From NCBI RefSeq assembly GCF_963975515.1, contig NZ_CAXBGY010000012.1, forward strand, positions 12,467-76,466: a stretch of 64,000 nucleotides of DNA, read 5' to 3'. Of the stretch, positions 25,961 through 43,569 are shown in pieces; positions within the stretch are counted from its first letter, which is position 1, and each line of letters opens with the position of its first letter. This DNA comes from an uncultured Flavobacterium sp. (GTDB taxonomy: Bacteria; Bacteroidota; Bacteroidia; Flavobacteriales; Flavobacteriaceae). A program made the translations under genes and the position numbers. The notes beneath the pieces were generated by a model. The model searched no databases. It worked only from the letters and a program-made list of their open reading frames with translations, and was not told where the DNA came from.

Positions 25961-28150
25961 ATGTTACAAAAGTTAATAGCCCCGTTAGCTTTGTTGAACA
26001 AAAAAGTTTTTTTAACAATAGCCTTGTTAATAAGTTGTATTATTGCCACTGCGCAAATTACAATAAACACACCTACATTGGGATTTACTCAAGTATGTGC
26101 TTCAACAACTTTTAACAATTACAATCTTAGTTTTTCTTTTTCTCCTGCTTCTAATTTAGGAACAGGAAATGTATTTTCTATAGAATTATCTAATGCAGCT
26201 GGTAGTTTTGCTTCACCCACGGTATTAACAACTTCTTCGGCAATAACTTCTCCCGTAAACGTGTCTTTTCCTTTTCCAACTAATGTTAATGGAACAAATT
26301 ATAGAATTCGTATAAAAAGTTCTTCACCTGTAAGTACCAGTCCCTCAAGTCCGGCTTTTTCAGCAAATTATGCTGTTTATAATCAACCTTTCACTATTAA
26401 CAATAACGTTTTTAATCAATCTATATGTAGTACCTCTACTTATAGTTTAACTATTGATAGTGGCCCAAATAGTCCTTTAAATTTTTCTCAATTAATATAT
26501 GTTTGGGAAAAAGATGGAGTTGTTTTGTCGGGCCAAACAGGTCCAAGTTTACCTGTAACAACAGCAGGTAGTTATTTTGTTAGCGTAAATTATGGAACAT
26601 GTAATTACAACTCTTATTCTAATGCTGTTGCAATTACTGTAATTCCATCGGAAACATTGACCATAAACTCTCAAGGCAATGCAACAAATATTTGTCCTAC
26701 AACTGGTTTATTATTATCAAGTATGATTGCTAGTTCTGGGTATACATATCAATGGTATTTAAACAATGTGTCAATAAGCAGTGCAACTAGTGCGACTTAT
26801 ACCGCAACACAAGCGGGTAATTATTCATTAATAGCTTCAAATTCAGCATGTGTTATTAATTCAAATATTTTAGTACTAACAGAAAATAGTTTTGCTCTTT
26901 CATTAGATTCAGGGGCTGAAGTTAACTTGTTACCTGGTCAAAATAAAACATTAACTTGTACAACCAATGCTTCAAACCCAACATATATTTGGTATAGAAA
27001 CAATGTTGAGTTAACAGGACAAGTAGGTAATTCTTTATCGGTAACTCAAACTGGAACTTATAAAGTGAAAGTGAAACAAAATACAGGCTGTATTCTTGAA
27101 AAAGAAGTTTCAACATTAGTTTCTCCATATACCTCTTATAACTTAACAATAATTCACGACGCAGACTATACGAGTTGTGAAAACCTTACAGAAACTTTAA
27201 CTGTTCAAGATTTTGAAGCGAGTTCTAATTTAATAACAGTTGCTGTACCATCAAACATTGGTGTAACTTATATATGGTATAAAAATAATGTTGCGATAAT
27301 CGGAGCTAATTCGCCTAGTTATACAATAGCTAATTATACAGATAATGGTAATTATCGTGTAGAAGCAAAATTTACTGATGGACAAATCGTTTCTTCTAAT
27401 GCTTTAGATGTTAAGTTAAAAATTGACGAGACTATAAATTTAACAACTGATGGTATTTTGTGTACTACTAATTCTAGTGTTACAATTACTTCTTCTATTA
27501 CAGATGCTGTTTTTACTTATCAATGGTTTATGGATGGAGATGCTACAGTTTTAGGAACAAATACAAGCTATAACGCAACAGTGGTTGGTGATTATTATTT
27601 AAAAATATCTCTTTTTGGATGTGAATTAAATTCAGATTTAATAGCTGTATCAACCATCGATGAAGGTCAATTAATAACAAATTATGATGAAGACATTTAC
27701 ATTAATGAAGGTGAAGAAATAACAATTATTGCTTCTGGAGTAGATTCTTATGAATGGTTTATTGATGGTGTTTTAGAAAATTCAACAAACGAAATTATTG
27801 TAAATCAAGAAATTACGATTCAGCTAATAGCACAACTTAATGGCTGTGAAATTATTAGAAATTTTACTGTCTTAATTCAGCCTAAAGTTTTTAGTGCTAT
27901 AATTCCAAACACGATAACTCCAAATAATGATGGTAAAAACGATACTTGGATAATTACTGAAGAATTGGCTTATCAAAATAACGTTGAGATTGTAATATTT
28001 TCATCTAATCAACAGATTGTTTATAGTACAAAAGATTATCAAAATAATTGGCCATTAGATTCAATTTCAAAAAACAATAAAATTTTTTATTACAAAATAA
28101 TACGAGATAATTCTACCATATATCAAGGTACGATATCAGTAATACAATAA
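25961..28150 (+). CDS. sprC: T9SS type B cargo with Ig-like domains, SprC-like
   Basis: Signal peptide; Ig-like repeats (YQWYLN, YIWYRN, YIWYKN); type B CTD IPNTITPNNDGKNDTW; position before a PorP-family gene and sprB. Confidence 0.72.
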   Translation: MLQKLIAPLALLNKKVFLTIALLISCIIATAQITINTPTLGFTQVCASTTFNNYNLSFSFSPASNLGTGNVFSIELSNAAGSFASPTVLTTSSAITSPVNVSFPFPTNVNGTNYRIRIKSSSPVSTSPSSPAFSANYAVYNQPFTINNNVFNQSICSTSTYSLTIDSGPNSPLNFSQLIYVWEKDGVVLSGQTGPSLPVTTAGSYFVSVNYGTCNYNSYSNAVAITVIPSETLTINSQGNATNICPTTGLLLSSMIASSGYTYQWYLNNVSISSATSATYTATQAGNYSLIASNSACVINSNILVLTENSFALSLDSGAEVNLLPGQNKTLTCTTNASNPTYIWYRNNVELTGQVGNSLSVTQTGTYKVKVKQNTGCILEKEVSTLVSPYTSYNLTIIHDADYTSCENLTETLTVQDFEASSNLITVAVPSNIGVTYIWYKNNVAIIGANSPSYTIANYTDNGNYRVEAKFTDGQIVSSNALDVKLKIDETINLTTDGILCTTNSSVTITSSITDAVFTYQWFMDGDATVLGTNTSYNATVVGDYYLKISLFGCELNSDLIAVSTIDEGQLITNYDEDIYINEGEEITIIASGVDSYEWFIDGVLENSTNEIIVNQEITIQLIAQLNGCEIIRNFTVLIQPKVFSAIIPNTITPNNDGKNDTWIITEELAYQNNVEIVIFSSNQQIVYSTKDYQNNWPLDSISKNNKIFYYKIIRDNSTIYQGTISVIQ

Positions 28151-28152
28151 GA

Positions 28153-29541
28153 ATGAATAGACACAAATTTCTTTTTATTATAGGGCTTGTCTTAAGCTGT
28201 GTTATAACTAATGCTCAAACTGATAGCAGTGATGAGTTTATAATGCCGTCTCAGACATTTATGCGTTTTAATAGAAATTTAGTTAACCCAACGTTATCAA
28301 TATTTAATAGTTATAAATCAGAATATGTAGCTTATCATAGAAACCAATGGTTTGATTATGATGAATCACCAAAAACATACATGGTAAATTACTCTGGAAA
28401 CGATTATGAAAATACTGGTTATGGATTAGGAATATATCAACAAGAGGTTGGTGTTTGGAAAAGCATTGGGGCTATTGCAAATTATGCAAAAGGTGTGCGT
28501 TTAAACGATGAAACTATATTGTCTTTAGGGTTTAATGTAGTCTTTTTTAATTCGGGTTTAAACAGAGGTAAAATAATAACTGGTGAAGCAGATCCGTATT
28601 TGGAACAATATGATAATACAAGTATGTTGATGCTAAATCCTGGATTATCTATCCAAGTTGGAAAGTTTAATTTTGGTGTTTATGGAGATAATTTAGTGGA
28701 TTATAATTTCAAATTAGGCGAAATGCAAACCAAATTTGGTGAAAAAACTATCTCAAGTCATTTGTCGTATATGTACTCTTTGGAGAATGCTTCAAATTTA
28801 TTTGAAAACAGTAGTTTAACCTTTTTAGGAAGAGGAAAATATATTGCCATGGAAGACTTTGATTATTCTGGTGGAATATTATATAATGTTCCAAGAGCTG
28901 GTTGGGTTCAAGGTTCTTATAGTGATTATTATGGGGTTTCGGGTGGTTTAGGAATAAACATCTCACAAAAAATTGCTGTAGGTTATAATTACGAAAAAGG
29001 ATTAGGTAAAGAAATTACAAATTTAGGAGCTACTCATGAAATATTTTTAGCCCTTACATTAGATAGCAATGAAGAATTCTCAGCATATGCTAAAAAACCA
29101 AAAATTAATAAACAAGAAGAAGCCGATAGACTTAAAAATCAAACCTTAGAACAAGAAGAAATTGACAGGTTTAAACAAAATATTTATAATCAAACTATTG
29201 TAGAAACGAACAATACAATTGTTAAAAAACTAGAAGAGTTTGTTTTGAATGCAGAGAACGACAACATTAATTATTTACTACTCCCAGAGAAAAACACTGG
29301 AGTTAAGAAAGGATATTATGTGATTGCTACTATTTATAAAGATAAAAATAAAGCGTCGAAATTTATAAGTGAGTTAAAGAAAAAAGGATTAAACAAAAGT
29401 GGATCATTTAAAACATCTGGCAATCAATGGAACTATGTTTACATAGAACGTTTTGAAAGTTATGAAGCAGCCAAAAAAGCATATCAAACAAAATTCAACA
29501 ATAAGTACCCCGAAACTATGTGGATTTTACCAATACTATAA
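28153..29541 (+). CDS. sprD: PorP/SprF-family T9SS membrane protein with a SPOR-like C-terminal extension, SprD-like
   Basis: NLVNPT, YHRNQW...SPKTY and VGYNYE...GATHEI barrel motifs; tail KGYYVIATIYKDKNKASKFISELKKKG. Confidence 0.72.
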   Translation: MNRHKFLFIIGLVLSCVITNAQTDSSDEFIMPSQTFMRFNRNLVNPTLSIFNSYKSEYVAYHRNQWFDYDESPKTYMVNYSGNDYENTGYGLGIYQQEVGVWKSIGAIANYAKGVRLNDETILSLGFNVVFFNSGLNRGKIITGEADPYLEQYDNTSMLMLNPGLSIQVGKFNFGVYGDNLVDYNFKLGEMQTKFGEKTISSHLSYMYSLENASNLFENSSLTFLGRGKYIAMEDFDYSGGILYNVPRAGWVQGSYSDYYGVSGGLGINISQKIAVGYNYEKGLGKEITNLGATHEIFLALTLDSNEEFSAYAKKPKINKQEEADRLKNQTLEQEEIDRFKQNIYNQTIVETNNTIVKKLEEFVLNAENDNINYLLLPEKNTGVKKGYYVIATIYKDKNKASKFISELKKKGLNKSGSFKTSGNQWNYVYIERFESYEAAKKAYQTKFNNKYPETMWILPIL

Positions 29542-29544
29542 CCT

Positions 29545-32500
29545 ATGAGAAAAATTACCCTATCTCAAAAATTTGTTGCTATTCTAATTTTAACATTAGG
29601 AACAATTACGTCATCAGCACAAATTAAAAACCCTTTTGATGTTCGATTTCAAACAACTGTAAGAGGAGATTTAACCATGATCTCTAACAATATTGTTAAT
29701 AGAAGTCCAAACCCAAATACGGCCTATAATACAACTGGAGGTTCATCTATCTATAATGATGAAACTAATATGCAGTTTATTGATATTGATGGTTCAACTC
29801 AAACATTTAATTCGAGTAGTGCTAATTTGACAGTTCCAGATGCAACATGTTCAAAGATCGTTCATGCTGGATTGTATTGGTCAGCAACTTATAGATATAA
29901 TATAGGTAACGACCCTTCTAGTGGACGTGCAACAGATTGGAATCAAGTAAAATTTAGAGTACCTGGTGGTGCTTATGTAAATGTGATTGCTGATGAAGTT
30001 TTATATGATGGTTTTGCTGATCCTATTCAAACAAATGTTACGCATGGTCCTTATGGTTGTTTTGCAGATGTTACTGCCTTAGTGTCTGGATTAGCCAATC
30101 CAAATGGAACCTATTTCGTCGGAAATATTAGAGTTAGTACAAATGGTAATAGTAGCGGTTCATTTTCAATACAAGGTGGAGTAGCTGGTGGATGGACTTT
30201 AGTAATCGTATACGAAAACATTAATTTACCCGGTAAAAAAATTACAACTTTTGATGGATATGCTGTTGTGGCTTCAAATGCTGGAAATTTAGATATTCCT
30301 GTTTCTGGATTTTCGACATTGCCTGCTCCATTTCCAGTAAGAGCAAAACTTGGAATTTCTACTTTAGAAGGAGATAATAGAGTTATAGGTGATCAATTAA
30401 GAATTAAAGCAAATTCAATAGCTGGTTTTACAAACCTAACAAATACACCTTTACCTGCCGCAGCAGTAACAAATAATTATTTTAATTCTTCAATTACCTT
30501 AAATGGCGCCTTTTTTAATGCCAGAAATCCAAATAGTTTAAACACCCTAGGTTGGGATGCTCACTTAAATAGAGTTAATAATCCTGGAAATAGCGTAATC
30601 CCTAATAATGAGACTGGTGTAACCTTAAGGGCGGTTTCAAGTGGTGATAAATATGATGTGTTTTTTACTTCTTTTGATGTTGAAATTATTGAACCTCAAA
30701 TTCCTTTATTAAAACAAGTTGAAGATATATCTGGTAATAATGTAAACGGTCAAACCTTAACCTTAGGACAAGAAATTTTTTATACCTTAACTTTTCAGAA
30801 TACTGGAAATGATAATGCGCTGAATTTTACCCTTACTGATATATTGCCAACAAACGCAATATTTCCAGCAAATGGAACTATTCAGCCTGGAGATTTAATT
30901 TTACCACCGGGAGTTACTTATGTTTTTAACCCAACAACAAATCAATTTACATTTTCTATACCAAATAATTTAGTTGAAATAGGAGATCCAGCTTATACAA
31001 TAAAAATTAAGGTTAAGTTACCTTTAAATTGTGAAGATTTTAGAGATGCTTGTACTAATCAAATAATTAACCAAGCCTATGTTTCTTATAATGGAGAATT
31101 AAATACTCAAGTTATTACAGATAACCCTAGTTTCAATGGATATGACAATTGTAATTATCCAACTCCAGGAACAACAAATTTTATAGCAAATATTGATGAT
31201 TGTATTTTTACAAGAACAGAAATTTTATGTGGTAACACTTTAGAATTAACAGGAGCTGATGGTTACGACACTTATTTGTGGCAAGATTCATCGGGAAATA
31301 CAATTGGAAATACACAAACAATAACTGTAAATGCTACAGGAACCTATACTGTGTTTTTATCTATTCCACCACCTTGTGTTTCAATATATGAGACAGTAAA
31401 TGTTGTAGATTTTAACAATGCCATAAGTTCAAACCCAGCAATTCCTTATGCAAATGTTGTAGAAACATGTCCTAATGATGGTTCACAGTTACCAAAAATA
31501 TTTTTATGTGGGTTAAATGATAGTGTCTTAATTCAATCCGGAGTAAATAATGCTATTAGTATACAATGGCAACAACTAGTTCCTGGAAGTTGTGCTCCAG
31601 TTGGAATTAGTAACTGTGCCAATACTAATAATAGTTGTACATGGAATACGGTTGGAACAGGTCCAAATTTTAATGTAACAACAGCTGGTGAATATCAGGT
31701 TATTTTTAACTATCAAAATGGTTGTTTTAGAAAATTCTATTTTAATGTTTTTCAAAACACATTAAATCCTGATATAGTAACGTCAAATATTATTTGTACA
31801 ACACCTGGTTCAATTACAATAAACAATATTCCTTCTACTTACGAATTTAGTTTATCTCCTACTGGTCCGTTTTCATCAAACAATGTAATTCCGATAACTA
31901 CTGCAGGAAATTATACTGTATACATTCAACAAACAGGAGTAACAGGAGGATGTCTTTTTGAGTTTCCAAATATTAATATCTTAAATCAAATTTTAGATGT
32001 TGATGTGATTGTTACAGATAAACTTTGTAATGATGGTTTTGGAAGTATTAGGGTACAAACGAATGGAGTAGAACCACAATATTATTTTCAGATATCTCAA
32101 GGAGCAACAATAATATCAACATTTGGTCCTTCAACAGATAATGATCATTTATTTTCTAATTTAAATCCTGGAACTTATACCGTAACAGCAACAACAGACG
32201 ATGGTTGTACATATACTGAACAAGTTACTATACAAGATTTATCAGATTTAGCCGTAAGTGCAGCAGTAACACAAAATATTAGTTGTGTAAATGGTCAAGT
32301 AACTTTAACACCATCTGGTGGTTTAGCTCCATACAATTATGCTGTTTATAGTTACAATGGAGTTCCAGTAGTATCAGGAAACTATGCTTATCAAACCTAC
32401 GAAATATTTGAGTATAATATAACTCAAATTGGAACTTATCAATATATAATTGTTGATAGTAATAATTGTACTTCGTTATCAAATATAGTAACAGTAGCAG

Positions 32501-35500
32501 CTGAACCAACAGTAACAATTACCGAAACTCATACAAACGTAACATGTAATGGGTTGAATAATGGTACAGCTACTATTTCCGCTTTACCTACAAATGGATA
32601 TGCCATAACTTATAGTATTGATGGAGGAATTAATTATCAAAATTCAAATGTTTTTACTGGATTAGCTCCTGGAACTTATACAATTGATATAAAATACACT
32701 AAACCAACACACGAATGTGATTATACAATTAACGTTACAATTACACAACCTACTCCTATAACGGGTCAATCACAAGTAACCCAACAATTAACATGTGTAG
32801 CAACAGGAACTATTCAAGCCTTTAATGTAACTGGTGGAACAGCTCCTTATCAATACAGTATTAATGGTATCACTTTTCAAAATGGTGCTTCTTTTCCTAA
32901 TCTTTCTGCAGGAACTTACGTAATTACTATTAGAGATTTTAATAACTGTACTACAACTACAACTCCAATAACTTTAGTTCAACCTCTTGCTGCAACAGAT
33001 TTAACGTTTACAGCTTCAAGTGTAACTTGTCCTACTTTAACAAGTAATGTTACAGCAACTATTGTGGGTGGAACTGCTCCTTTTGTAGTTCAAATAACAG
33101 CTCCTTCAACTATTGCTGCAACTTCTATTGCTGGAAACGTTGCTACTTTTAATAACTTAGCGGTAGGTTCATATACATTCAATGTAACAGATGCTAATGG
33201 ATGTATGTATCAAGAAAACTTTACAATTAACCCAATTACTTTTATTAATGTTACTGGAAATTTAGTTTCTAATGTTATTTGTTTCGGTGCTTCTAATGGT
33301 GCTGTTTCTTATAATGTAACTGGTTTTAACACTACTTATTCTTATACCGTAAATAGTGGAACAGCTGTTACTAATCAAACTAGTAATACAATAAATTTAA
33401 ATAGTTTAGCTGCTGGTAATTATGCTATAACAGTTACTGATAACAGTACAAACTGTCAAAGTACTGTAAGTGTAACTGTAGCTCAACCTAGTTCTCCTTT
33501 AGCACTTAATGCAACTACAAACCCAATAACTTGTATTGCTAATGGAACTATAAATGCAGCTGCTTCAGGTGGTTGGGGTTCTTATTCTTATACTTTAACA
33601 CAACCTAATGCTGCAACTGTTGGTCCACAAAGTAGTGGTGTATTCACAAATCAAACACAAACAGGTACTTATACTATTTCGGTTACTGACGGAAATGGAT
33701 GTATAGTAACTAGTACGGCAACTTTAAGCCCTACTGTTAATCCAACACTAACTATAAGTCCTACTTCAACATTATGTTATAATGCAACAACGGGTTCAAC
33801 TGTTATATTAACAGCAGCTAGTGGTGTTGCTCCTTATCAATATAGTTCTGGTGGTGCATTTCAATCAAGTAATACTTTTGCTGGATTAACTCCTGGAAAT
33901 TATACGTTCACAGTTAGAGATAGTTATGGTTGTACGGCAACTGTTACGCAAACTATTACTCCTGCTTTATTAGCACAAACTACCATAACTAAAACATTAG
34001 ATTGTAGTGCTTCACCAAATGCTGTAATTACAGTAAATGTAAATGGTGGAACAACGCCATACCAATACCAAGTTAATTTTAATGGTGGTGGATTCGGTGC
34101 TTTAAATCCAATTGTAGGATCTTCTTTTACTTATTCAACAGCAATTGCAGGTACTTATCAATTCTTAATAACGGGTGCTACTGGTTGTACTTACACTACT
34201 AGTATTATCACTATCAATCCAATTACAAATCCAGATATTACTTCTATTACACCAACACAACAAAATTTATGTAATGGAGATACCAATGGTGCAATACAAG
34301 TAAATATTGACAACACTCAAGGAACTTCTCCTTTTCAATACAGTATCAATGGCGGAACAACTTATCAAAGTTCAAACATATTTACTGGACTTGCTGCCGG
34401 AACCTATACCGTAATTGTAAGAGACTCTAAACTTTGTACAGATACCGAAAGTATTACTCTTGTACAGCCAGCCATACTTGCAGGTCAATCACAAGTAACC
34501 CAACAATTAACATGTGTAGCAACAGGAACTATTCAAGCCTTTAATGTAACTGGTGGAACAGCTCCTTATCAATACAGTATTAATGGTATCACTTTTCAAA
34601 ATGGTGCTTCTTTTCCTAATCTTTCTGCAGGAACTTACGTAATTACTATTAGAGATTTTAATAACTGTACTACAACTACAACTCCAATAACTTTAGTTCA
34701 ACCTCTTGCTGCAACAGATTTAACGTTTACAGCTTCAAGTGTAACTTGTCCTACTTTAACAAGTAATGTTACAGCAACTATTGTGGGTGGAACTGCTCCT
34801 TTTGTAGTTCAAATAACAGCTCCTTCAACTATTGCTGCAACTTCTATTGCTGGAAACGTTGCTACTTTTAATAACTTAGCGGTAGGTTCATATACATTCA
34901 ATGTAACAGATGCTAATGGATGTATGTATCAAGAAAACTTTACAATTAACCCAATTACTTTTATTAATGTTACTGGAAATTTAGTTTCTAATGTTATTTG
35001 TTTCGGTGCTTCTAATGGTGCTGTTTCTTATAATGTAACTGGTTTTAACACTACTTATTCTTATACCGTAAATAGTGGAACAGCTGTTACTAATCAAACT
35101 AGTAATACAATAAATTTAAATAGTTTAGCTGCTGGTAATTATGCTATAACAGTTACTGATAACAGTACAAACTGTCAAAGTACTGTAAGTGTAACTGTAG
35201 CTCAACCTAGTTCTCCTTTAGCACTTAATGCAACTACAAACCCAATAACTTGTATTGCTAATGGAACTATAAATGCAGCTGCTTCAGGTGGTTGGGGTTC
35301 TTATTCTTATACTTTAACACAACCTAATGCTGCAACTGTTGGTCCACAAAGTAGTGGTGTATTCACAAATCAAACACAAACAGGTACTTATACTATTTCG
35401 GTTACTGACGGAAATGGATGTATAGTAACTAGTACGGCAACTTTAAGCCCTACTGTTAATCCAACACTAACTATAAGTCCTACTTCAACATTATGTTATA

Positions 35501-38500
35501 ATGCAACAACGGGTTCAACTGTTATATTAACAGCAGCTAGTGGTGTTGCTCCTTATCAATATAGTTCTGGTGGTGCATTTCAATCAAGTAATACTTTTGC
35601 TGGATTAACTCCTGGAAATTATACGTTCACAGTTAGAGATAGTTATGGTTGTACGGCAACTGTTACGCAAACTATTACTCCTGCTTTATTAGCACAAACT
35701 ACCATAACTAAAACATTAGATTGTAGTGCTTCACCAAATGCTGTAATTACAGTAAATGTAAATGGTGGAACAACGCCATACCAATACCAAGTTAATTTTA
35801 ATGGTGGTGGATTCGGTGCTTTAAATCCAATTGTAGGATCTTCTTTTACTTATTCAACAGCAATTGCAGGTACTTATCAATTCTTAATAACGGGTGCTAC
35901 TGGTTGTACTTACACTACTAGTATTATCACTATCAATCCAATTACAAATCCAGATATTACTTCTATTACACCAACACAACAAAATTTATGTAATGGAGAT
36001 ACCAATGGTGCAATACAAGTAAATATTGACAACACTCAAGGAACTTCTCCTTTTCAATACAGTATCAATGGCGGAACAACTTATCAAAGTTCAAACATAT
36101 TTACTGGACTTGCTGCCGGAACCTATACCGTAATTGTAAGAGACTCTAAACTTTGTACAGATACCGAAAGTATTACTCTTGTACAGCCAGACGCCATAAC
36201 CTTTGATATTTCAATAACAGAAATAACTTGTAATAATCCAGGTGGAACAAGTTATGGTGAAGTAATTTTTGAAAATATAACTGGAGGAACACAACCGTAT
36301 ACTTATTATTTGAGTAGTAATTTTGGCTATGCAGATAGTTATTCAACAACAACAAACGAAGATCATACATTTGTAATATTAAACTTTGGAATATATACTG
36401 CTGAGGTAATAGATTCAAATGGTTGTTCTATTGTAAAAAGTAATATTATTATTGCTTCACCACCAGATGACTTAGATATCGATATTTCTACAGCAACAGC
36501 TGATTGTATAAGTGGTGGAACTGCAATAATAACTGTTTCCTCTTTAGTAAGTAGTGGTTCTTATGAATTTGGAATACTAGAAACTAATACCTTACCTTAT
36601 ACAACATCTTGGCAATTAGCAGATGCTGGTACTCCAGAAACTTCAACTTTTACAGGTTTAACACCTGGAGTAACTTATACATTTGTAGTTCATGATTTAA
36701 TTACACTTTGTTATTATTTTGAAACAGCTAATGGTCCAATTCCAACTCCTTCTAATTTAACAACTGTAATAGATGTTGTTCAAAATGTAACTTGTACAGG
36801 AAGTGGAAATGGAAATATATCATTTACGTTTGACAATTATAATGCTCTAACTACATCTGTAGATTATGAAATATTCAATGCTCAATCAAATTTAACTACT
36901 GGATTGATAGGAAATAGCCTAACACCTGGTGGACCAATAAATGTTCTAAATTTTGGTATATTACCTCCAGGAACCTATTATATATTATTAACAGAAAACG
37001 GAACAGGAAGTGCAAATGGTTGTACTTCTGCAACTCCAAACTTTACAATTACTCAATCTACTAACCAATTAATTGGAACAGCTACTTTAGTTAAAAACGA
37101 TAACTGTAATTTAAATGCTGGAATTGTTACCGCGACTGGTCAGTTTGGAACAGCTCCATATCAATATCAAATTGTGTTAAGTACAGATCCTGCTCCAACG
37201 GTTGGAACTTGGACTGGAACCCCTACAAATACTTTCAATGTTGAAAATGGTTCTTATATTGTTTATGTAAAAGATGCTAATAACTGTATAGCAGCTAGTA
37301 ATATAGTTGTTGTTGGACTTGATCCTTCGCCAGAAATTACTTTAGCAATAGATGATGCCTGTGCAAACGAAGGAAGTTTTGTAATTAATGGTATCAGAAC
37401 TGTGGATGGAATTGCTCCTTATACTATAACAGTGGATGGAAATACTCCTTACACTGAAAATGCAGCCAACTTTACTATTTCAAACTTATTATCAGGTAGT
37501 CATACTGTAACTATTACCGATGCTAATGGTTGTACATATTCACAAACTATCCTTATAGATCAAATTATTAATGGAAATGCAATTGTTACTGTTCAACCTA
37601 GTTGTGCTAATAATGATGGTGAAATTCAAGCTACTGCAACTAACGGAAGTACAAATTATTCTTTTGAGTTACAAACAACAGCTGGTGTTAACGTAGCCGG
37701 TCCAAACACAACTGGTTTATTTACTGGATTAGGTTTTGGAAACTATAATGTAATTATTTCTGATGCTACTTTAGGATGTGATATTACTATTCCTTTATCT
37801 TTAGAACAACCTGCTCCTGTTTCATTCACTACAACACATGAAAATGTAAGCTGTAATGGAGCGACTGATGGAAGTATTTCTATTGCTTTAGACGCAACAA
37901 ATATTGATACTCCTTATACGTATTCATTATTTGATGGTACAACAACTGTAACTCAAAATAGTCCGATTTTTACAGGTTTAGCTGCTGGAAACTATACCGT
38001 AACCGTAACTTCTTCTAAAAACTGTACTGATTCTCAAATTATAAATGTTACCCAGCCAAATCCTTTAGCTTTAGCTCTAACAGGTGGCGATTTTGCTTGT
38101 AATAGTAATAACACAGTAAGTGTTGTTACAGTAACAGCAAACGTAGCTTTAGGAACAGGAACTGCTCCTTATTTGTATAGTATAGATGGTACAAATTATC
38201 AAACAACTAATACTTTTGATATAGTAGATAATGGAACTATTCAAAATATAACCATAACAGTTCAAGATTTTAATGGTTGTACAATTAATGAATCTATAAC
38301 TATTAACCCTTTACCAACTATTACTAATGTTGCTGTTACTCAGAATACAGCTTTAACGTGTGCAAATAATGAAGAAGTTTTAATAACTGTAACTGGTGGT
38401 TCAGGAAACTATACTTATCAATTGTTACCAAATGGAGCAATTGTTGGACCTACTTCAAGTAATACAGCTACCTTCTCTCTTACTACTGCAGGAACATATA

Positions 38501-41500
38501 CTTTTGAAATAATTGATACCGTAACAGGTTGTAGTACTATTACTGTTCCTTACACAATTAATCCTCTACCTGTTTTAACCGTTGTAGCTGATAATACTAA
38601 TGCTGTAAATTGTTATGGTGAAACTAATGGTTCTTTCGATATAACAGTTAGTGGTTATTCAGGAAACTATAACTACAATATTTATGATGAAACAAATACA
38701 ATTGTAGCTTCTGGAAGTAATAATACCACAACAAATCCTTTAACTTTAACTTTAACTAGTTTAGGAGCTGGAAATTATTCGGTTCAAATAATTGCTACAC
38801 AAACTCCTTTCTGTGAAACTATTTCCAATGTAATCACAATTGGATCACCTGTTGGTCCACTTGGTGTAAATGTAACAGCTACAAACGATAACTGTAATTT
38901 AAATGCTGGAATTGTTACCGCGACTGGTCAGTTTGGAACAGCTCCATATCAATATCAAATTGTGTTAAGTACAGATCCTGCTCCAACGGTTGGAACTTGG
39001 ACTGGAACCCCTACAAATACTTTCAATGTTGAAAATGGTTCTTATATTGTTTATGTAAAAGATGCTAATAACTGTATAGCAGCTAGTAATATAGTTGTTG
39101 TTGGACTTGATCCTTCGCCAGAAATTACTTTAGCAATAGATGATGCCTGTGCAAACGAAGGAAGTTTTGTAATTAATGGTATCAGAACTGTGGATGGAAT
39201 TGCTCCTTATACTATAACAGTGGATGGAAATACTCCTTACACTGAAAATGCAGCCAACTTTACTATTTCAAACTTATTATCAGGTAGTCATACTGTAACT
39301 ATTACCGATGCTAATGGTTGTACATATTCACAAACTATCCTTATAGATCAAATTATTAATGGAAATGCAATTGTTACTGTTCAACCTAGTTGTGCTAATA
39401 ATGATGGTGAAATTCAAGCTACTGCAACTAACGGAAGTACAAATTATTCTTTTGAGTTACAAACAACAGCTGGTGTTAACGTAGCCGGTCCAAACACAAC
39501 TGGTTTATTTACTGGATTAGGTTTTGGAAACTATAATGTAATTATTTCTGATGCTACTTTAGGATGTGATATTACTATTCCTTTATCTTTAGAACAACCT
39601 GCTCCTGTTTCATTCACTACAACACATGAAAATGTAAGCTGTAATGGAGCGACTGATGGAAGTATTTCTATTGCTTTAGACGCAACAAATATTGATACTC
39701 CTTATACGTATTCATTATTTGATGGTACAACAACTGTAACTCAAAATAGTCCGATTTTTACAGGTTTAGCTGCTGGAAACTATACCGTAACCGTAACTTC
39801 TTCTAAAAACTGTACTGATTCTCAAATTATAAATGTTACCCAGCCAAATCCTTTAGCTTTAGCTCTAACAGGTGGCGATTTTGCTTGTAATAGTAATAAC
39901 ACAGTAAGTGTTGTTACAGTAACAGCAAACGTAGCTTTAGGAACAGGAACTGCTCCTTATTTGTATAGTATAGATGGTACAAATTATCAAACAACTAATA
40001 CTTTTGATATAGTAGATAATGGAACTATTCAAAATATAACCATAACAGTTCAAGATTTTAATGGTTGTACAATTAATGAATCTATAACTATTAACCCTTT
40101 ACCAACTATTACTAATGTTGCTGTTACTCAGAATACAGCTTTAACGTGTGCAAATAATGAAGAAGTTTTAATAACTGTAACTGGTGGTTCAGGAAACTAT
40201 ACTTATCAATTGTTACCAAATGGAGCAATTGTTGGACCTACTTCAAGTAATACAGCTACCTTCTCTCTTACTACTGCAGGAACATATACTTTTGAAATAA
40301 TTGATACCGTAACAGGTTGTAGTACTATTACTGTTCCTTACACAATTAATCCTCTACCTGTTTTAACCGTTGTAGCTGATAATACTAATGCTGTAAATTG
40401 TTATGGTGAAACTAATGGTTCTTTCGATATAACAGTTAGTGGTTATTCAGGAAACTATAACTACAATATTTATGATGAAACAAATACAATTGTAGCTTCT
40501 GGAAGTAATAATACCACAACAAATCCTTTAACTTTAACGGGTCTTGGTGCTGGAAACTATTCTGTACAAATAATTGCTACACAAACTCCTTTCTGTGAAA
40601 CTATTTCCAATGTAATTAATATATATTCTCCGCCAAACCCATTAACATTGGTTGTTCAACAAACTTCTGATGTGACTTGTAATATTCCTGGTTTAGGAAC
40701 AATAACTGCACAAGCAAATGGTGGAAACGGAACATATGAATATCAATTAGTAAATACAACTACTAGTACAACTATACAAGCATTTGGAGCCAATAATACA
40801 TTTACTGGTTTAGATGCAGGTACTTATGAAGTTACAGTTAGAGATATTAATTTATGTGAAGTTTCTCAGACTATAATCCTTATTGCACCAACAGCAATTA
40901 ATGCTACTTATGTTGTTACAAATGCTAATTTATTATGTTATAATAATACAAATGCAAGTGTTACAATAACAGCAACAGGAGGTCAAGGAAGTTACCAATA
41001 CACATTGACTGAATCTGATGGTGATATTTATGGACCTCAGATTGAAAATGTGTTTAGTGGTTTAGGCGCAGGCACTTATACTATAAGTATTAATGATGGA
41101 TGGAATTGTGATTTTACTGCATTGCCATTTACAATTACACAACCAACAAAAATTGAGGCGACTTTAAGTGTTCAAAGTACATTAACTTGTGATAACGATG
41201 CTGAATTAATCATTAATGCATCAGGTGGAACACCACCTTATATGTATAGTGCAGATGGAATAACCTTTAATTCAACAAATACATTCTTTGTTGGTCCTGG
41301 AACATATCAATATTATGTTACTGATGCAAACGGTTGTACTGCAACACAGACAAATGAAGTGACAATTTCTCCAATCCCATCATTAACTGTAACTATTAAT
41401 GCTTCAAATACTGCTATTCAATGTAACGGAGATATGAATGCTTCTATTACTGTAAATGCAACGGGCGGATTAGGAAATTATAATTATACTTTATTAAATA

Positions 41501-43569
41501 GTACTACAATGGCAATTATCACTGGTCCACAAACTAGTAATGTTTTTAGTCCATTAGGTGCTGGATCATATATTGTAAGTGTTAATAGTGTTGATTGTGA
41601 TCAAAACTCAAATACGGTTATTATTACACAACCTTTAAACCCACTTAACATTACTAATTTTACAGTAATACCTGCAACTTGTAATGGAACAGCAAATGGA
41701 AGTATAACATTTAACCCAACTGGAGGAACACCTCCTTATCAATATGCAATTACAAATCATTTAGATCAATTTTTTGATACAAATACTTTTATTGGTTTAG
41801 GTGTGGGTACATATTCAGTAGTTGTTCAAGATACTAACGGTTGTTTTGAAACAATCAATGTTCAAATGACAGAACCTGCTCCTTTAGTCGCGTCTTCTGT
41901 TAATACGTTTGAAGTATGTGAAGGAAGTAATAATGGAACTGCAACTTTAACCATAACTGGTGGAACTGCTCCTTATTATACAAGTTTAGATGATGATACA
42001 CCAACTAGTTTTGTACAAGGGCAATTAATTTTTAATAACTTAGATAGCACGGTTGATCATACTATATTTGTGCATGATGCTAATGACTGTCAGACAACAG
42101 TTTATATTCCTGTTGGAAATCCTATTACATTGACACCAACTGCTACTGTAACTTATGCTTGTACAACTACGACTACCTTACAAAACAATACAGTAACAGT
42201 TAATGTTGAAGCTTCTAATGTTGGTCAAGTTCAGTATTCATTAGATAATCAAACAAATTATCAAACAAACAATGTCTATACTAATTTAAATAATGGTACA
42301 CATACTATTTATGTAATGCATACAAATGGTTGTGTTAAAACAGTAACAGTAAACATTACAAACTGGAGTCCAGTTACTGAAACTCATACTCAAGTTAATG
42401 TATTATGTAATAGTGCAACAACTGGTAGTATAACAGTGAATGGAAATGGTGGAAACGGAACATATCAATATGCAATTTCTCCAGCATTTACTTACGGAAC
42501 GGCAAATACATTCAACAATTTAACTGTTGGAACATATACTGTAAAAGTAAAAGATGGTAATAACTGTGAAATTGAAACACAACTAATAACAATAACTCAA
42601 CCAACAGTATTAAATGCAATTGTATCTGATTTTGAACAAGATGTTTGTCAAGGAGATAATGCAGGATATATACAAGTAACTGCTAGTGGTGGAGTTGGTC
42701 CTTATATGGCAAGTTTTAATAACACAACTAATTATCAAGCAGTAAATGCTTCTAATATTGTAGACTATTTTGGTTTAGCTGGTGGAGCAACATATACTAT
42801 TTATATAAAAGATGTTAATGGTTGTGTCACTTCTGTTCAACAAACTTTAGATCCAGCAGTTGATTTAGATCCAAACGCTGTTGTAGTTTATGATTGTTTA
42901 GATAACCAATCAACAAATACTGTAACAATTTCAGTCGATGCAATCTATCAAAACGATGTTGTTTATTCGATTGATGGAGTTAATTTCCAATTAAGTAACA
43001 CGTTTACAAATGTTGCTGCTGGTAACTACACTGCATATGTTGAACATTCTAACGGTTGTTTTAACAGTAATGAAACTTTTACAGTTGATCAAATTGATGC
43101 GGTTAGTTTAATTGTAACTGAAACAGGATTAAATGAAATAACAGCAGTTGCTTCTGGTGGTGTTCCTCCTTATTCGTATGTGTTTAATGGAACAAACACA
43201 GGATCAAACAATGTATTTATCTTTAATCAAACAGGAAATCAATATGTATCTGCTTATGATGCAAATGGTTGTGAAGCTAATTTTACAATTCCAACAACAT
43301 TCTACCCTATAGAAATTCCAAACTTCTTTACACCTGATGGAAATGGATTTAACGATTATTGGTCACCTAAAAATGTAGATAACTATACTAATATTGAAAG
43401 TTTAATTTTCGATAGATACGGTAGAGAAATCATACGATTAAAATTAGGAGAATCTTGGAACGGAACTTATGACTCTATTGATTTACCATCTGGTGATTAC
43501 TGGTATTTGGTAAATGTAAATGACGGAACAGGAAGAACATTCACGGGTAACTTCACTCTTTATAGATAA
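29545..43569 (+). CDS. sprB: Giant gliding-motility surface adhesin (4674 aa), T9SS type B cargo
   Basis: Signal peptide, N-terminal domain, DUF11-like segment (GQEIFYTLTFQNTG), dozens of SprB repeats (C...G.I....GG..PY.Y) and type B CTD IPNFFTPDGNGFNDYW...FTGNFTLYR; followed by a PorP/SprF gene. Confidence 0.9.
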   Translation: MRKITLSQKFVAILILTLGTITSSAQIKNPFDVRFQTTVRGDLTMISNNIVNRSPNPNTAYNTTGGSSIYNDETNMQFIDIDGSTQTFNSSSANLTVPDATCSKIVHAGLYWSATYRYNIGNDPSSGRATDWNQVKFRVPGGAYVNVIADEVLYDGFADPIQTNVTHGPYGCFADVTALVSGLANPNGTYFVGNIRVSTNGNSSGSFSIQGGVAGGWTLVIVYENINLPGKKITTFDGYAVVASNAGNLDIPVSGFSTLPAPFPVRAKLGISTLEGDNRVIGDQLRIKANSIAGFTNLTNTPLPAAAVTNNYFNSSITLNGAFFNARNPNSLNTLGWDAHLNRVNNPGNSVIPNNETGVTLRAVSSGDKYDVFFTSFDVEIIEPQIPLLKQVEDISGNNVNGQTLTLGQEIFYTLTFQNTGNDNALNFTLTDILPTNAIFPANGTIQPGDLILPPGVTYVFNPTTNQFTFSIPNNLVEIGDPAYTIKIKVKLPLNCEDFRDACTNQIINQAYVSYNGELNTQVITDNPSFNGYDNCNYPTPGTTNFIANIDDCIFTRTEILCGNTLELTGADGYDTYLWQDSSGNTIGNTQTITVNATGTYTVFLSIPPPCVSIYETVNVVDFNNAISSNPAIPYANVVETCPNDGSQLPKIFLCGLNDSVLIQSGVNNAISIQWQQLVPGSCAPVGISNCANTNNSCTWNTVGTGPNFNVTTAGEYQVIFNYQNGCFRKFYFNVFQNTLNPDIVTSNIICTTPGSITINNIPSTYEFSLSPTGPFSSNNVIPITTAGNYTVYIQQTGVTGGCLFEFPNINILNQILDVDVIVTDKLCNDGFGSIRVQTNGVEPQYYFQISQGATIISTFGPSTDNDHLFSNLNPGTYTVTATTDDGCTYTEQVTIQDLSDLAVSAAVTQNISCVNGQVTLTPSGGLAPYNYAVYSYNGVPVVSGNYAYQTYEIFEYNITQIGTYQYIIVDSNNCTSLSNIVTVAAEPTVTITETHTNVTCNGLNNGTATISALPTNGYAITYSIDGGINYQNSNVFTGLAPGTYTIDIKYTKPTHECDYTINVTITQPTPITGQSQVTQQLTCVATGTIQAFNVTGGTAPYQYSINGITFQNGASFPNLSAGTYVITIRDFNNCTTTTTPITLVQPLAATDLTFTASSVTCPTLTSNVTATIVGGTAPFVVQITAPSTIAATSIAGNVATFNNLAVGSYTFNVTDANGCMYQENFTINPITFINVTGNLVSNVICFGASNGAVSYNVTGFNTTYSYTVNSGTAVTNQTSNTINLNSLAAGNYAITVTDNSTNCQSTVSVTVAQPSSPLALNATTNPITCIANGTINAAASGGWGSYSYTLTQPNAATVGPQSSGVFTNQTQTGTYTISVTDGNGCIVTSTATLSPTVNPTLTISPTSTLCYNATTGSTVILTAASGVAPYQYSSGGAFQSSNTFAGLTPGNYTFTVRDSYGCTATVTQTITPALLAQTTITKTLDCSASPNAVITVNVNGGTTPYQYQVNFNGGGFGALNPIVGSSFTYSTAIAGTYQFLITGATGCTYTTSIITINPITNPDITSITPTQQNLCNGDTNGAIQVNIDNTQGTSPFQYSINGGTTYQSSNIFTGLAAGTYTVIVRDSKLCTDTESITLVQPAILAGQSQVTQQLTCVATGTIQAFNVTGGTAPYQYSINGITFQNGASFPNLSAGTYVITIRDFNNCTTTTTPITLVQPLAATDLTFTASSVTCPTLTSNVTATIVGGTAPFVVQITAPSTIAATSIAGNVATFNNLAVGSYTFNVTDANGCMYQENFTINPITFINVTGNLVSNVICFGASNGAVSYNVTGFNTTYSYTVNSGTAVTNQTSNTINLNSLAAGNYAITVTDNSTNCQSTVSVTVAQPSSPLALNATTNPITCIANGTINAAASGGWGSYSYTLTQPNAATVGPQSSGVFTNQTQTGTYTISVTDGNGCIVTSTATLSPTVNPTLTISPTSTLCYNATTGSTVILTAASGVAPYQYSSGGAFQSSNTFAGLTPGNYTFTVRDSYGCTATVTQTITPALLAQTTITKTLDCSASPNAVITVNVNGGTTPYQYQVNFNGGGFGALNPIVGSSFTYSTAIAGTYQFLITGATGCTYTTSIITINPITNPDITSITPTQQNLCNGDTNGAIQVNIDNTQGTSPFQYSINGGTTYQSSNIFTGLAAGTYTVIVRDSKLCTDTESITLVQPDAITFDISITEITCNNPGGTSYGEVIFENITGGTQPYTYYLSSNFGYADSYSTTTNEDHTFVILNFGIYTAEVIDSNGCSIVKSNIIIASPPDDLDIDISTATADCISGGTAIITVSSLVSSGSYEFGILETNTLPYTTSWQLADAGTPETSTFTGLTPGVTYTFVVHDLITLCYYFETANGPIPTPSNLTTVIDVVQNVTCTGSGNGNISFTFDNYNALTTSVDYEIFNAQSNLTTGLIGNSLTPGGPINVLNFGILPPGTYYILLTENGTGSANGCTSATPNFTITQSTNQLIGTATLVKNDNCNLNAGIVTATGQFGTAPYQYQIVLSTDPAPTVGTWTGTPTNTFNVENGSYIVYVKDANNCIAASNIVVVGLDPSPEITLAIDDACANEGSFVINGIRTVDGIAPYTITVDGNTPYTENAANFTISNLLSGSHTVTITDANGCTYSQTILIDQIINGNAIVTVQPSCANNDGEIQATATNGSTNYSFELQTTAGVNVAGPNTTGLFTGLGFGNYNVIISDATLGCDITIPLSLEQPAPVSFTTTHENVSCNGATDGSISIALDATNIDTPYTYSLFDGTTTVTQNSPIFTGLAAGNYTVTVTSSKNCTDSQIINVTQPNPLALALTGGDFACNSNNTVSVVTVTANVALGTGTAPYLYSIDGTNYQTTNTFDIVDNGTIQNITITVQDFNGCTINESITINPLPTITNVAVTQNTALTCANNEEVLITVTGGSGNYTYQLLPNGAIVGPTSSNTATFSLTTAGTYTFEIIDTVTGCSTITVPYTINPLPVLTVVADNTNAVNCYGETNGSFDITVSGYSGNYNYNIYDETNTIVASGSNNTTTNPLTLTLTSLGAGNYSVQIIATQTPFCETISNVITIGSPVGPLGVNVTATNDNCNLNAGIVTATGQFGTAPYQYQIVLSTDPAPTVGTWTGTPTNTFNVENGSYIVYVKDANNCIAASNIVVVGLDPSPEITLAIDDACANEGSFVINGIRTVDGIAPYTITVDGNTPYTENAANFTISNLLSGSHTVTITDANGCTYSQTILIDQIINGNAIVTVQPSCANNDGEIQATATNGSTNYSFELQTTAGVNVAGPNTTGLFTGLGFGNYNVIISDATLGCDITIPLSLEQPAPVSFTTTHENVSCNGATDGSISIALDATNIDTPYTYSLFDGTTTVTQNSPIFTGLAAGNYTVTVTSSKNCTDSQIINVTQPNPLALALTGGDFACNSNNTVSVVTVTANVALGTGTAPYLYSIDGTNYQTTNTFDIVDNGTIQNITITVQDFNGCTINESITINPLPTITNVAVTQNTALTCANNEEVLITVTGGSGNYTYQLLPNGAIVGPTSSNTATFSLTTAGTYTFEIIDTVTGCSTITVPYTINPLPVLTVVADNTNAVNCYGETNGSFDITVSGYSGNYNYNIYDETNTIVASGSNNTTTNPLTLTGLGAGNYSVQIIATQTPFCETISNVINIYSPPNPLTLVVQQTSDVTCNIPGLGTITAQANGGNGTYEYQLVNTTTSTTIQAFGANNTFTGLDAGTYEVTVRDINLCEVSQTIILIAPTAINATYVVTNANLLCYNNTNASVTITATGGQGSYQYTLTESDGDIYGPQIENVFSGLGAGTYTISINDGWNCDFTALPFTITQPTKIEATLSVQSTLTCDNDAELIINASGGTPPYMYSADGITFNSTNTFFVGPGTYQYYVTDANGCTATQTNEVTISPIPSLTVTINASNTAIQCNGDMNASITVNATGGLGNYNYTLLNSTTMAIITGPQTSNVFSPLGAGSYIVSVNSVDCDQNSNTVIITQPLNPLNITNFTVIPATCNGTANGSITFNPTGGTPPYQYAITNHLDQFFDTNTFIGLGVGTYSVVVQDTNGCFETINVQMTEPAPLVASSVNTFEVCEGSNNGTATLTITGGTAPYYTSLDDDTPTSFVQGQLIFNNLDSTVDHTIFVHDANDCQTTVYIPVGNPITLTPTATVTYACTTTTTLQNNTVTVNVEASNVGQVQYSLDNQTNYQTNNVYTNLNNGTHTIYVMHTNGCVKTVTVNITNWSPVTETHTQVNVLCNSATTGSITVNGNGGNGTYQYAISPAFTYGTANTFNNLTVGTYTVKVKDGNNCEIETQLITITQPTVLNAIVSDFEQDVCQGDNAGYIQVTASGGVGPYMASFNNTTNYQAVNASNIVDYFGLAGGATYTIYIKDVNGCVTSVQQTLDPAVDLDPNAVVVYDCLDNQSTNTVTISVDAIYQNDVVYSIDGVNFQLSNTFTNVAAGNYTAYVEHSNGCFNSNETFTVDQIDAVSLIVTETGLNEITAVASGGVPPYSYVFNGTNTGSNNVFIFNQTGNQYVSAYDANGCEANFTIPTTFYPIEIPNFFTPDGNGFNDYWSPKNVDNYTNIESLIFDRYGREIIRLKLGESWNGTYDSIDLPSGDYWYLVNVNDGTGRTFTGNFTLYR
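32764..36190. repeat. Tandem duplication A inside sprB: 32764-34471 and 34483-36190
   Basis: Two 1708-nt copies, offset 1719 nt (573 codons); no mismatch found in a line-by-line comparison. Confidence 0.97.
37095..40538. repeat. Tandem duplication B inside sprB: 37095-38750 and 38883-40538
   Basis: Two 1656-nt copies, offset 1788 nt (596 codons), no mismatch found; an extra identical 50-nt patch at 38785-38834 and 40567-40616. Confidence 0.97.

What the first reader, a model, noticed from the sequence alone, without database searches (positions are those of the whole stretch)
32764..36190. Identical in-frame 1.7-kb tandem duplication of seven SprB modules
Seen: the copies at 32764-34471 and 34483-36190 show no mismatch by eye, even at synonymous sites. 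They are separated by a unique 11-nt linker; the period is 573 codons and covers seven Cys-initiated modules. Known: long identical direct repeats are RecA substrates. Inference: recombination would add or remove 573 aa without a frameshift, tuning filament length within a population. An assembly or polishing artefact is the main alternative.
Basis: partly seen in the sequence, partly recalled or inferred. Interest (0 to 1): 0.7.

Follow-up and report, generated by a model that had tools for sequence, protein, structure and literature searches.

The report
Duplicated seven-domain blocks in adhesin gene
A giant surface adhesin gene of a marine Flavobacterium carries two in-frame tandem duplications of seven-domain blocks; these are old, are kept near-identical by gene conversion and have been lost repeatedly in related lineages, but their "perfect" identity here is largely a by-product of short-read assembly.

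Summary
Window 32764-34471 and 34483-36190 are identical (0/1708 mismatches), with a period of 1719 nt (573 codons, seven Cys-pair modules). They lie in a 4674-aa SprB-repeat, T9SS type-B-CTD adhesin gene (29545-43569) that is followed by its PorP/SprF partner.

A second seven-module duplication lies at 37095-38737 / 38883-40525.

The genome is a k=55 de Bruijn draft without rRNA, probably a MAG. An independent Tara assembly of the same population differs from it at only four sites in 20 kb, and each difference appears in both copies. Both copies were therefore emitted from one graph edge, so the perfect identity and the copy number of exactly two are not established.

The duplications themselves are real:
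- Four species-level lineages carry both, with homologous junctions.
- In two lineages the B copies are mosaic, with 60-80% patches next to 100% tracts, and B1/B2 orthology holds across species.
- In a 92%-identical relative, block A is a stand-alone repeat contig with the same boundaries, while B is single.
- Other relatives, including one at 90% identity, have one copy of each.

Best reading: old duplications homogenised by gene conversion and repeatedly lost. This gives length variants of the Periscope-protein type.

The parts
29545..43569 (+). Gene for a 4674-aa SprB-repeat adhesin. It has a signal-peptide-like N-terminus, an N-terminal ~1070-aa head region (DUF11-type repeat), about 45 Cys-pair modules and a C-terminal T9SS type-B sorting domain.
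   Evidence: ORF list and translation. Pfam SprB repeat E=2e-132 with 19 stretches, and CHU_C at aa 4589-4670. TIGR04131 E=8e-24.
32764..34471 (+). Block A, copy 1 core (1708 nt). With the linker it forms a unit of 1719 nt, 573 aa and seven modules.
34472..34482 (+). A1/A2 junction, CCATACTTGCA, inside the codons for P-AILA-G. It is unlike either flank. Junctions of the same type (x-[IVL]-L-[AVI]) occur in three other lineages.
34483..36190 (+). Block A, copy 2 core (1708 nt), identical to copy 1 in this assembly.
   Evidence: Mirrored assembly difference at 34404/36123.
37095..38737 (+). Block B, copy 1 core (1643 nt, perfect). The unit is 1788 nt, 596 aa and seven modules.
38738..38876 (+). 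Mosaic 3' edge of B1 (a 6-nt indel plus 8 mismatches, then 50 identical nt) followed by the unique B1/B2 junction, which encodes ...GSPVGPLGVNVT|ATNDNC.
   Evidence: A homologous junction is present in L021 and L022.
38883..40525 (+). Block B, copy 2 core (1643 nt), identical to the copy 1 core in this assembly.
   Evidence: Mirrored differences at 38596/40384, 38634/40422 and 38646/40434.
43576..44529 (+). Cognate PorP/SprF-family outer-membrane protein (317 aa), the presumed anchor and secretion partner of the adhesin.
   Evidence: TIGR03519 E=1e-59 and PF11751 E=1e-70. The synteny is conserved in all orthologous loci.
25961..29541 (+). Upstream pair in the same orientation: a 729-aa Ig-like protein with a type-B CTD, and a 462-aa PorP/SprF protein with a SPOR tail.
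   Evidence: Conserved upstream of every orthologue.

Best explanation
The gene encodes a giant cell-surface adhesin built from SprB repeats. It is secreted by the type IX system and held by the PorP/SprF protein encoded next to it. Two separate seven-module blocks (A, 573 aa; B, 596 aa) each stand as a head-to-tail pair. Both duplications arose before the present species-level lineages of this marine Flavobacterium clade split. Since then, homologous recombination between the copies (gene conversion or unequal crossing-over) has kept each pair nearly identical within a genome while the pairs diverged about 25% between genomes. This is concerted evolution. The same recombination deletes a copy in frame, and that has happened repeatedly, so the relatives carry A2B2, A(>=2)B1 or A1B1 versions. 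These differ by 573 and/or about 596 aa in an otherwise collinear protein. Shown here: the duplication, its frame, its presence in other lineages, the mosaic tracts and the scatter of states on the tree. Inferred: RecA-type recombination as the agent, a consequence for the reach or length of the adhesin, and selection for keeping the long form. In this assembly the exact 100% identity and the count of two are imposed by the assembler. The real copies probably differ at one or more sites in A and at three or more sites in B.
For: Geometry and family. Assembly type: contig ends overlap by exactly 55 nt and the assembly holds no 16S. The Tara metaSPAdes scaffold L019 differs from the window at only 8 nt in 20,025. 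These are 4 sites, each mirrored in both copies, with no difference in unique sequence (P about 0.002 by chance). Orthologues with identical synteny: L020, L021 and L022 carry both duplications at the same places. The A copies are 100% identical within each of 4 lineages but only about 72-75% identical between lineages, and they cluster by genome. The B copies in L021 and L022 are mosaics, with 60-80% identity over the first ~480 nt and then 100% tracts with sharp edges. In the diverged part B1 groups with B1 and B2 with B2 across the two species, and the AU test rejects grouping by genome with p=3e-50. The B junction peptide SPVGPLGV(N/T)VTATNDNC is shared by the window, L021 and L022, and the A junction is of one type in all four lineages. 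G239 (92% nt identity) has block A as a separate 1710-nt contig with 95-nt overlaps to both flanking contigs, at the same boundaries, and a single contiguous B. G043 (90% identity), L023, L024 (close to F. ponti), L025-27, L028 and G019 are contiguous single-copy forms. At least 3 state changes are needed for each block on the trees of the unique gene parts.
Against: No reads could be examined, so copy number, heterogeneity and true inter-copy identity in this population are unmeasured. For block A, the case for a single old origin rests on identical boundaries and on a 4-residue junction motif. In L021 and L022 the junction equals the left flank, which a fresh unequal crossover would also give. 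The deep branches of the gene trees are unresolved, and the gene shows recombination between lineages (the mid segment of G239 is 83% identical against 88-92% for its flanks). That could mimic some tree signals: L025 groups with B1 of L021/L022, which could reflect an imported segment and not age. The groups for the AU tests were named after the tree had been seen. All two-copy forms with identical cores come from graph assemblers that can write one edge twice.
Confidence: 0.65

Rival explanations
1. Young, lineage-specific duplication. Block A was duplicated recently in this lineage, and separately in the others, at a recombination-prone module boundary. The copies are identical simply because there has been no time to diverge, and no concerted evolution is involved.
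For: There are zero mismatches in 1708 nt. The copies cluster by genome in every lineage. In L021 and L022 the junction is identical to the left flank, as a fresh unequal crossover between module 0 and module 7 would give.
Against: The same block with the same boundaries is repeated in five lineages (window, G239, L020, L021, L022). In the window the 11-nt junction matches neither flank (3/11), so it is not a fresh product. The sister block B demonstrably predates a speciation and is homogenised in tracts. A 1-codon difference in unit length between lineages is present in both copies of each lineage (period 1719 against 1722).
Confidence: 0.12
2. The tandem repeat is real, but the assembly misstates it. 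The population carries more than two copies of A, or a mixture of one-, two- and three-copy cells, and the contig shows only the shortest walk through a loop in the assembly graph.
For: This is a k=55 de Bruijn assembly in which a 1.7-kb perfect repeat cannot be spanned by reads. The mirrored differences between two assemblies show that both copies were written from one edge. G239's assembler left the block unresolved as a separate contig.
Against: Three further assemblies of other lineages also give two copies. For B in L021 and L022 the diverged 5' parts define exactly two distinct copies. No orthologue of three-copy length appears among the close homologues.
Confidence: 0.18
3. Misassembly. 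There is only one copy of block A, and the second copy and the linker are assembler artefacts.
For: It is a draft short-read assembly, and the copies are suspiciously perfect.
Against: The junction is a specific in-frame sequence absent elsewhere, so it must exist in reads. It recurs in an independent assembly (L019) and, in diverged form, in three other lineages. In G239 the block ends at graph branch points on both sides. Unitig-type assemblers gave unbroken single-copy genes for other lineages, so breaks and loops are not a general artefact of this gene.
Confidence: 0.03

Closest known systems
Periscope Proteins (Whelan et al. 2021, PMC8201768): SasG, Rib, Sgo_0707, CdrA, Esp
   Same: A surface protein in which tandem, highly identical DNA repeats encode folded domains. 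Repeat number differs between close relatives. Intragenic homologous recombination is proposed as the cause and length change as the effect.
   Different: Here the repeated unit is a cassette of seven different domains (1.7 kb), not a single domain. The copy number seen is only 1 or 2. There are two independent cassettes in one gene. The protein is a Bacteroidota T9SS type-B cargo, and neither 'SprB' nor 'Bacteroidetes' occurs in the main text of that paper (its supplementary dataset was not checked). Variation is shown between species-level lineages, not strains, and without long reads.
SprB of Flavobacterium johnsoniae and other type-B-CTD cargo with a cognate PorP/SprF protein (PMC9143113)
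   Same: SprB repeats, a type-B C-terminal sorting domain and an adjacent PorP/SprF-family gene.
   Different: It is 4674 aa, against about 6500 aa (669 kDa) for SprB. The best matches to Flavobacterium proteins of about 7000 aa are only 36-37% identical in the searched region. The upstream genes are an Ig-like type-B cargo and a PorP-SPOR protein. Orthology to sprB, and a role in gliding, were not tested.
Concerted evolution of tandem paralogues by gene conversion (for example bacterial rRNA operons and tuf genes; from general knowledge)
   Same: Paralogues within a genome are more alike than orthologues are. The tracts are mosaic with sharp edges. The duplication is older than the speciation.
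   Different: Here it acts inside a single reading frame, on 1.7-kb multi-domain cassettes, and is coupled to recurrent in-frame loss.

Membership tests
SprB-repeat T9SS type-B-CTD adhesin (SprB-like) | Multiple Pfam SprB repeats (PF13573) | tested here: met
   E=2e-132 with 19 stretches in the whole protein. There are 5 stretches in unit A and 4 in unit B.
SprB-repeat T9SS type-B-CTD adhesin (SprB-like) | C-terminal type-B sorting domain (TIGR04131 / PF13585) | tested here: met
   TIGR04131 scores 83.6 bits against a cut-off of 35. CHU_C matches aa 4589-4670.
SprB-repeat T9SS type-B-CTD adhesin (SprB-like) | Adjacent cognate PorP/SprF-family gene | tested here: met
   The gene at 43576-44529 matches TIGR03519 at 202 bits against a cut-off of 90.6. 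This layout is conserved in all orthologous loci.
SprB-repeat T9SS type-B-CTD adhesin (SprB-like) | Orthology to F. johnsoniae sprB and a role as the mobile gliding adhesin | not tested
   Only distant similarity (36-37%) to large Flavobacterium proteins was seen. No functional data are available.
Periscope Proteins | Tandem repeats with very high DNA identity that encode folded domains of a surface protein | tested here: met
   Identity is 100% over 1708 nt and over 1643 nt in the assembly. The true value is probably 99.6% or more, given the mirrored sites.
Periscope Proteins | Repeat-number variation among strains or close relatives | tested here: met
   The states A2B2, A>=2B1 and A1B1 occur among lineages that are 90-92% identical in this gene, and again in two other clades. 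Variation between strains or within a population was not tested.
Periscope Proteins | Repeat numbers verified with reads that span the array | not testable with these tools
All assemblies used are short-read graph assemblies.
Periscope Proteins | Rod-like stalk that sets the projection distance of a distal functional domain | not tested
   No structure was computed. Rod shape is inferred from the regular Cys-pair modules with short linkers.
Concerted evolution by gene conversion | Paralogues within a genome are more alike than orthologues between genomes | tested here: met
   A1 and A2 are sisters in each of 4 genomes with 100/100 support, while the identity between lineages is about 72-75% at the protein level.
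Concerted evolution by gene conversion | The duplication predates the split of the lineages compared | tested here: met
   For B, the B1/B2 orthology between L021 and L022 and the shared junction peptide in the window, L021 and L022 show it. For A the evidence is only identical boundaries and the junction type, which is weaker.
Concerted evolution by gene conversion | Mosaic of converted and unconverted tracts with sharp borders | tested here: met
   The B profiles of L021 and L022 jump from 60-68% to 100% within one 60-nt bin. The window's B has a diverged patch at 38738-38784.

The most novel reading that the evidence does not exclude
Marine Flavobacterium populations may use two independent seven-domain cassettes in one T9SS adhesin as a recombinational length switch. 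This would give up to four length morphs (A1B1, A2B1, A1B2, A2B2; 3505-4674 aa) that interconvert by RecA-dependent deletion and re-expansion on ecological time scales and are sorted by selection. It would be a Periscope-type mechanism, so far described mainly in pathogens, operating at cassette scale in free-living Bacteroidota. Concerted evolution would keep the switch substrate intact over species-level divergence.
Probability: 0.3. Interest if true: 0.55.

Novelty: new member of a known kind. Interest (0 to 1): 0.4.

Why it matters
Copy-number change of near-identical intragenic repeats is a recognised way for bacteria to alter how far surface adhesins reach. It has been documented mostly with long reads in clinical Gram-positive and proteobacterial strains. 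This locus extends the pattern to a T9SS SprB-type adhesin of marine Flavobacterium. The unit here is a seven-domain cassette, and the comparison across species separates old duplication plus gene conversion from recent duplication. There is also a practical lesson: in MAGs from de Bruijn assemblers, 'perfect' kilobase tandem repeats carry no information about true identity or copy number, and mirrored differences between independent assemblies reveal this.

Tried and rejected
Depth, allele balance and spanning reads remain untested.
2. Exact and back-translated searches for the A junction in metagenome contigs found nothing.
3. A search for a junction contig in G239 found none. The junction edge would be about 200 nt and was probably filtered out, so the tandem arrangement in G239 is inferred from branch points only.
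4. Coupling of the two duplications. All first-sampled lineages were A2B2 or A1B1, which suggested either assembler collapse or selection on total length. I dropped this after G239 proved to have A repeated and B single, and because unitig-type assemblers (MEGAHIT, Logan) gave unbroken single-copy genes.
5. A seven-module super-repeat throughout the protein. Self-similarity offsets show only a weak excess at 7 and 14 modules, which is not convincing.
6. I suspected that contig C21 (5.4 kb, with 55-nt overlaps to three contigs) was a collapsed rRNA operon. It is protein-coding with no Rfam match, and the assembly simply lacks 16S.
7. The tree of the mid segment between A and B is unresolved and so gives no support for the idea that B1 of L021/L022 was imported from an L025-like donor.
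Full report
**1. Observation**

- Window 32764-34471 and 34483-36190 are identical, with 0 mismatches in 1708 nt.
- The period is 1719 nt, or 573 codons.
- The two copies are separated by the 11-nt CCATACTTGCA, and the period-1719 identity stops exactly at those borders.

Both copies lie in frame in one ORF, 29545-43569 (+), which encodes 4674 aa. The unit contains 14 cysteines in seven regular pairs, with gaps of about 55 and about 26 residues, so it holds seven modules. Five of them reach significance for the Pfam SprB repeat.

A whole-genome self-comparison found only two repeats longer than 400 nt at 95% identity or more. They are this one and a second one in the same gene.

**2. The gene and its setting**

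The protein has the following features:
- 19 significant SprB-repeat stretches (E=2e-132);
- a DUF11-type repeat in its N-terminal ~1070 aa;
- a C-terminal type-B T9SS sorting domain (TIGR04131 at 83.6 bits; CHU_C at aa 4589-4670).

The next gene, 43576-44529, is a PorP/SprF-family protein. Upstream lie an Ig-like type-B cargo (25961-28150) and a PorP/SprF protein with a SPOR tail (28153-29541).

Type-B cargo proteins are thought to be anchored by their cognate PorP-like protein, as shown for SprB-SprF (PMC9143113). I therefore treat this protein as a SprB-like surface adhesin. Orthology to sprB and a role in gliding were not tested.

A near-identical single-copy orthologue cluster contains a protein of Flavobacterium ponti (WP_379737280.1), which places the clade in Flavobacterium.

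**3. A second duplication**

- The segment 37095-38737 equals 38883-40525, a perfect match over 1643 nt, with a period of 1788 nt (596 aa). This unit is also seven modules long.
- It is followed by a diverged patch at 38738-38784 (a 6-nt indel plus 8 mismatches), then 50 identical nt, then a unique junction.
- Another first-stage note (e1-5234487) had flagged this repeat separately.

**4. What the assembly can and cannot tell**

The genome has 22 contigs and 3.19 Mb, and no 16S rRNA was found. Several contig ends overlap by exactly 55 nt. That is the signature of a de Bruijn assembler with a final k of 55, and probably of a MAG. With such an assembler a 1.7-kb perfect tandem repeat is a loop in the graph, and the contig writes the same edge twice.

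Direct evidence comes from scaffold L019, from a Tara metaSPAdes assembly (ERZ2783045), which carries the same locus.
- Over 20,025 nt it differs from the window at only 8 positions.
- These 8 positions are 4 sites, each changed in both copies: 34404/36123, 38596/40384, 38634/40422 and 38646/40434.
- There is no difference in the unique sequence.
- The chance that 4 of 4 variable sites fall in the repeat cores is about 0.002.

The simplest reading is that these sites differ between the two copies, or are polymorphic within them. Each assembler then collapsed the resulting bubble one way and wrote the result twice.

Three consequences follow:
- The perfect identity, including at synonymous sites, is not evidence about the DNA.
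- The true copies probably differ at 1 or more sites in A and 3 or more sites in B.
- The copy number is at least two but is not fixed.

The 50-nt identical stretch at 38785-38834 is shorter than k, which fits this picture.

**5. The duplication itself is real**

The junction is a specific in-frame sequence that recurs in the independent assembly L019.

The orthologous genes all share the same neighbours: Ig/CHU_C gene, PorP-SPOR gene, giant gene, PorP gene, folB. Their states are as follows.

| Lineage | Source | State |
|---|---|---|
| Window | this MAG | A2B2 |
| L020 | JGI metagenome | A2B2, same positions |
| L021 | GCA_964643105 | A2B2, same positions |
| L022 | SPAdes contig in ENA | A2B2, same positions |
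| G239 | 92% nt identity to the window | A repeated (two or more copies), B single |
| G043 | 90% nt identity, contiguous | A1B1 |
| L023 | Logan | A1B1 |
| L024 | metaSPAdes; same 90% cluster as the F. ponti protein | A1B1 |
| L025-27 | JGI | A1B1 |
| L028 | MEGAHIT | A1B1 |
| G019 | more distant congener | A1B1 |

- In L021 the two B copies are only 92% identical, and in L022 only 86%. No assembler loop can produce that.
- In G239, block A is a separate 1710-nt contig whose two ends overlap the flanking contigs by exactly 95 nt. The block is therefore bounded by graph branch points at the same positions as in the window, within 2 nt.
- Unitig-style assemblers cannot run through a branch point. 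The unbroken single-copy genes they produced are therefore real, at least for the majority genotype in those samples.

**6. Age and mechanism**

*Block A.* In all four lineages the A core is 100% identical within the genome but only about 72-75% identical between lineages at the protein level. A1 and A2 are sisters in every genome.

*Block B.*
- In L021 the first ~480 nt of B1 and B2 are 60-80% identical, and the next ~1260 nt are 100% identical.
- In L022 there are two diverged patches separated by a 100% tract.
- The transitions occur within one 60-nt bin.
- In the diverged part, B1 of L021 groups with B1 of L022, and B2 with B2 (supports 100/99 and 97/99).
- Forcing the copies of one genome together costs 106 log-likelihood units (AU p=3e-50). 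Forcing all four copies together gives p=2.5e-6. The groups were named after the tree had been seen.
- In the homogenised tract, L021 and L022 differ from each other by about 7-27% per 60-nt bin while each is internally identical.

So the B duplication predates that speciation and has been homogenised afterwards in each lineage.

*Junctions.*
- The B junction peptide is shared by the window (GSPVGPLGVNVTATNDNC), L021 (GSPAGALDVTVTATNDNC) and L022 (GSPVGPLGVTVTATNDNC). It is not a chimera of the flanks.
- The A junction is AILA in the window, PVLV in L020, ALLV in L021 and DVLI in L022. The ancestral left flank in single-copy forms is of the type T-P-[IL]-x.
- In the window, the 11-nt A junction matches each flank at only 3 of 11 positions.

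A junction that has diverged this far next to 1708 identical bases is hard to reconcile with a fresh duplication. It is what old copies with conversion confined to the homologous core would look like.

*Expected divergence.* Suppose the A duplication was already present in the ancestor of the window and G239, as the identical boundaries suggest. Then about 8% divergence between these lineages predicts on the order of a hundred differences between unconverted copies. At most a few are seen.

**7. Gain and loss**

- On trees of the unique N-terminal and C-terminal parts of the gene, the states need at least 3 changes for A and 3 for B.
- The C-terminal tree separates a clade of single-copy forms only (L024, L025, L028) from a clade that contains all duplicated forms. 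That fits one origin followed by losses in L023, G043 and, for B, G239.
- The N-terminal tree differs in detail, and deep nodes are unresolved. The mid segment shows mosaicism between lineages. Polarity is therefore an inference from the shared junctions.
- Deletion by recombination between direct repeats removes exactly one unit in frame. This is geometry plus general knowledge of RecA-dependent tandem-repeat instability. It was not measured here.

**8. Comparison with what is known**

The closest concept is the Periscope Protein class (PMC8201768). These are surface proteins whose tandem, highly identical repeats change in number by intragenic recombination and so change the length of the stalk.

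This locus shares the high repeat identity and the copy-number differences between close relatives. It differs in four ways:
- the unit is a cassette of seven different domains;
- there are two cassettes in one gene;
- copy numbers are low;
- the protein is a T9SS cargo of a free-living marine bacteroidote.

Neither 'SprB' nor 'Bacteroidetes' occurs in the main text of that paper. No paper on gene conversion or cassette duplication in SprB-type proteins turned up.

I class it as a new member of a known kind.

**9. Verdict**

The in-frame gain and loss is borne out by comparison between lineages.
- The 'identity even at synonymous sites' is imposed by the assembler, and the identity that is real reflects homogenisation of an old duplication, not a recent origin.
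- Tuning within a population and an effect on filament length remain untested.
- Interest is moderate (0.4). The comparative case for concerted evolution and recurrent loss in a giant adhesin is clean, and it carries a useful warning about repeats in MAGs, but the principle is well established.

Noticed in passing
window 37095-38737 / 38883-40525: There is a second seven-module in-frame tandem duplication in the same gene (1643 nt perfect, period 1788 nt), with a diverged patch and a 6-nt indel at 38738-38784. In other lineages it is mosaic, and it gives the best evidence for gene conversion.
   Followed up: yes
window 34404/36123, 38596/40384, 38634/40422, 38646/40434 versus L019: These are the only differences between two assemblies of the same population over 20 kb, and each is mirrored in both repeat copies. 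They are probably hidden differences between the copies. One is non-synonymous (T/A at aa 3018 and 3614).
   Followed up: partly
window 25961-29541: A second cargo-anchor pair lies directly upstream: a 729-aa Ig-like protein with a type-B CTD, plus a PorP/SprF protein with a C-terminal SPOR domain. The pair is conserved in every orthologous locus.
   Followed up: partly
L018 (G019:C1) 5225-16459, minus strand: The congener orthologue (3745 aa) has single A and B blocks, about 240 extra residues in the C-terminal module region, and strong self-similarity at a three-module offset. Module number therefore also varies elsewhere in the gene.
   Followed up: partly
L032 (G239:C2) about 105-985 in gene orientation, matching window 36200-37080: The segment between blocks A and B is only 83% identical to the window in G239, although the flanking parts are 88-92% identical. 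This suggests recombination between lineages within the gene.
   Followed up: no
G000 contigs C21 (5431 nt), C7, C14, C1; whole assembly: C21 overlaps three other contigs by exactly 55 nt. It is protein-coding (ORFs of 1274 and 406 aa) and not rRNA, so it may be a repeated or strain-variable segment. No 16S rRNA gene is present in the assembly.
   Followed up: partly
orthologues L024 and G019 (whole proteins): Self-similarity shows a weak excess at offsets of 7 and 14 modules, a hint of an older seven-module super-repeat. It is not convincing.
   Followed up: partly
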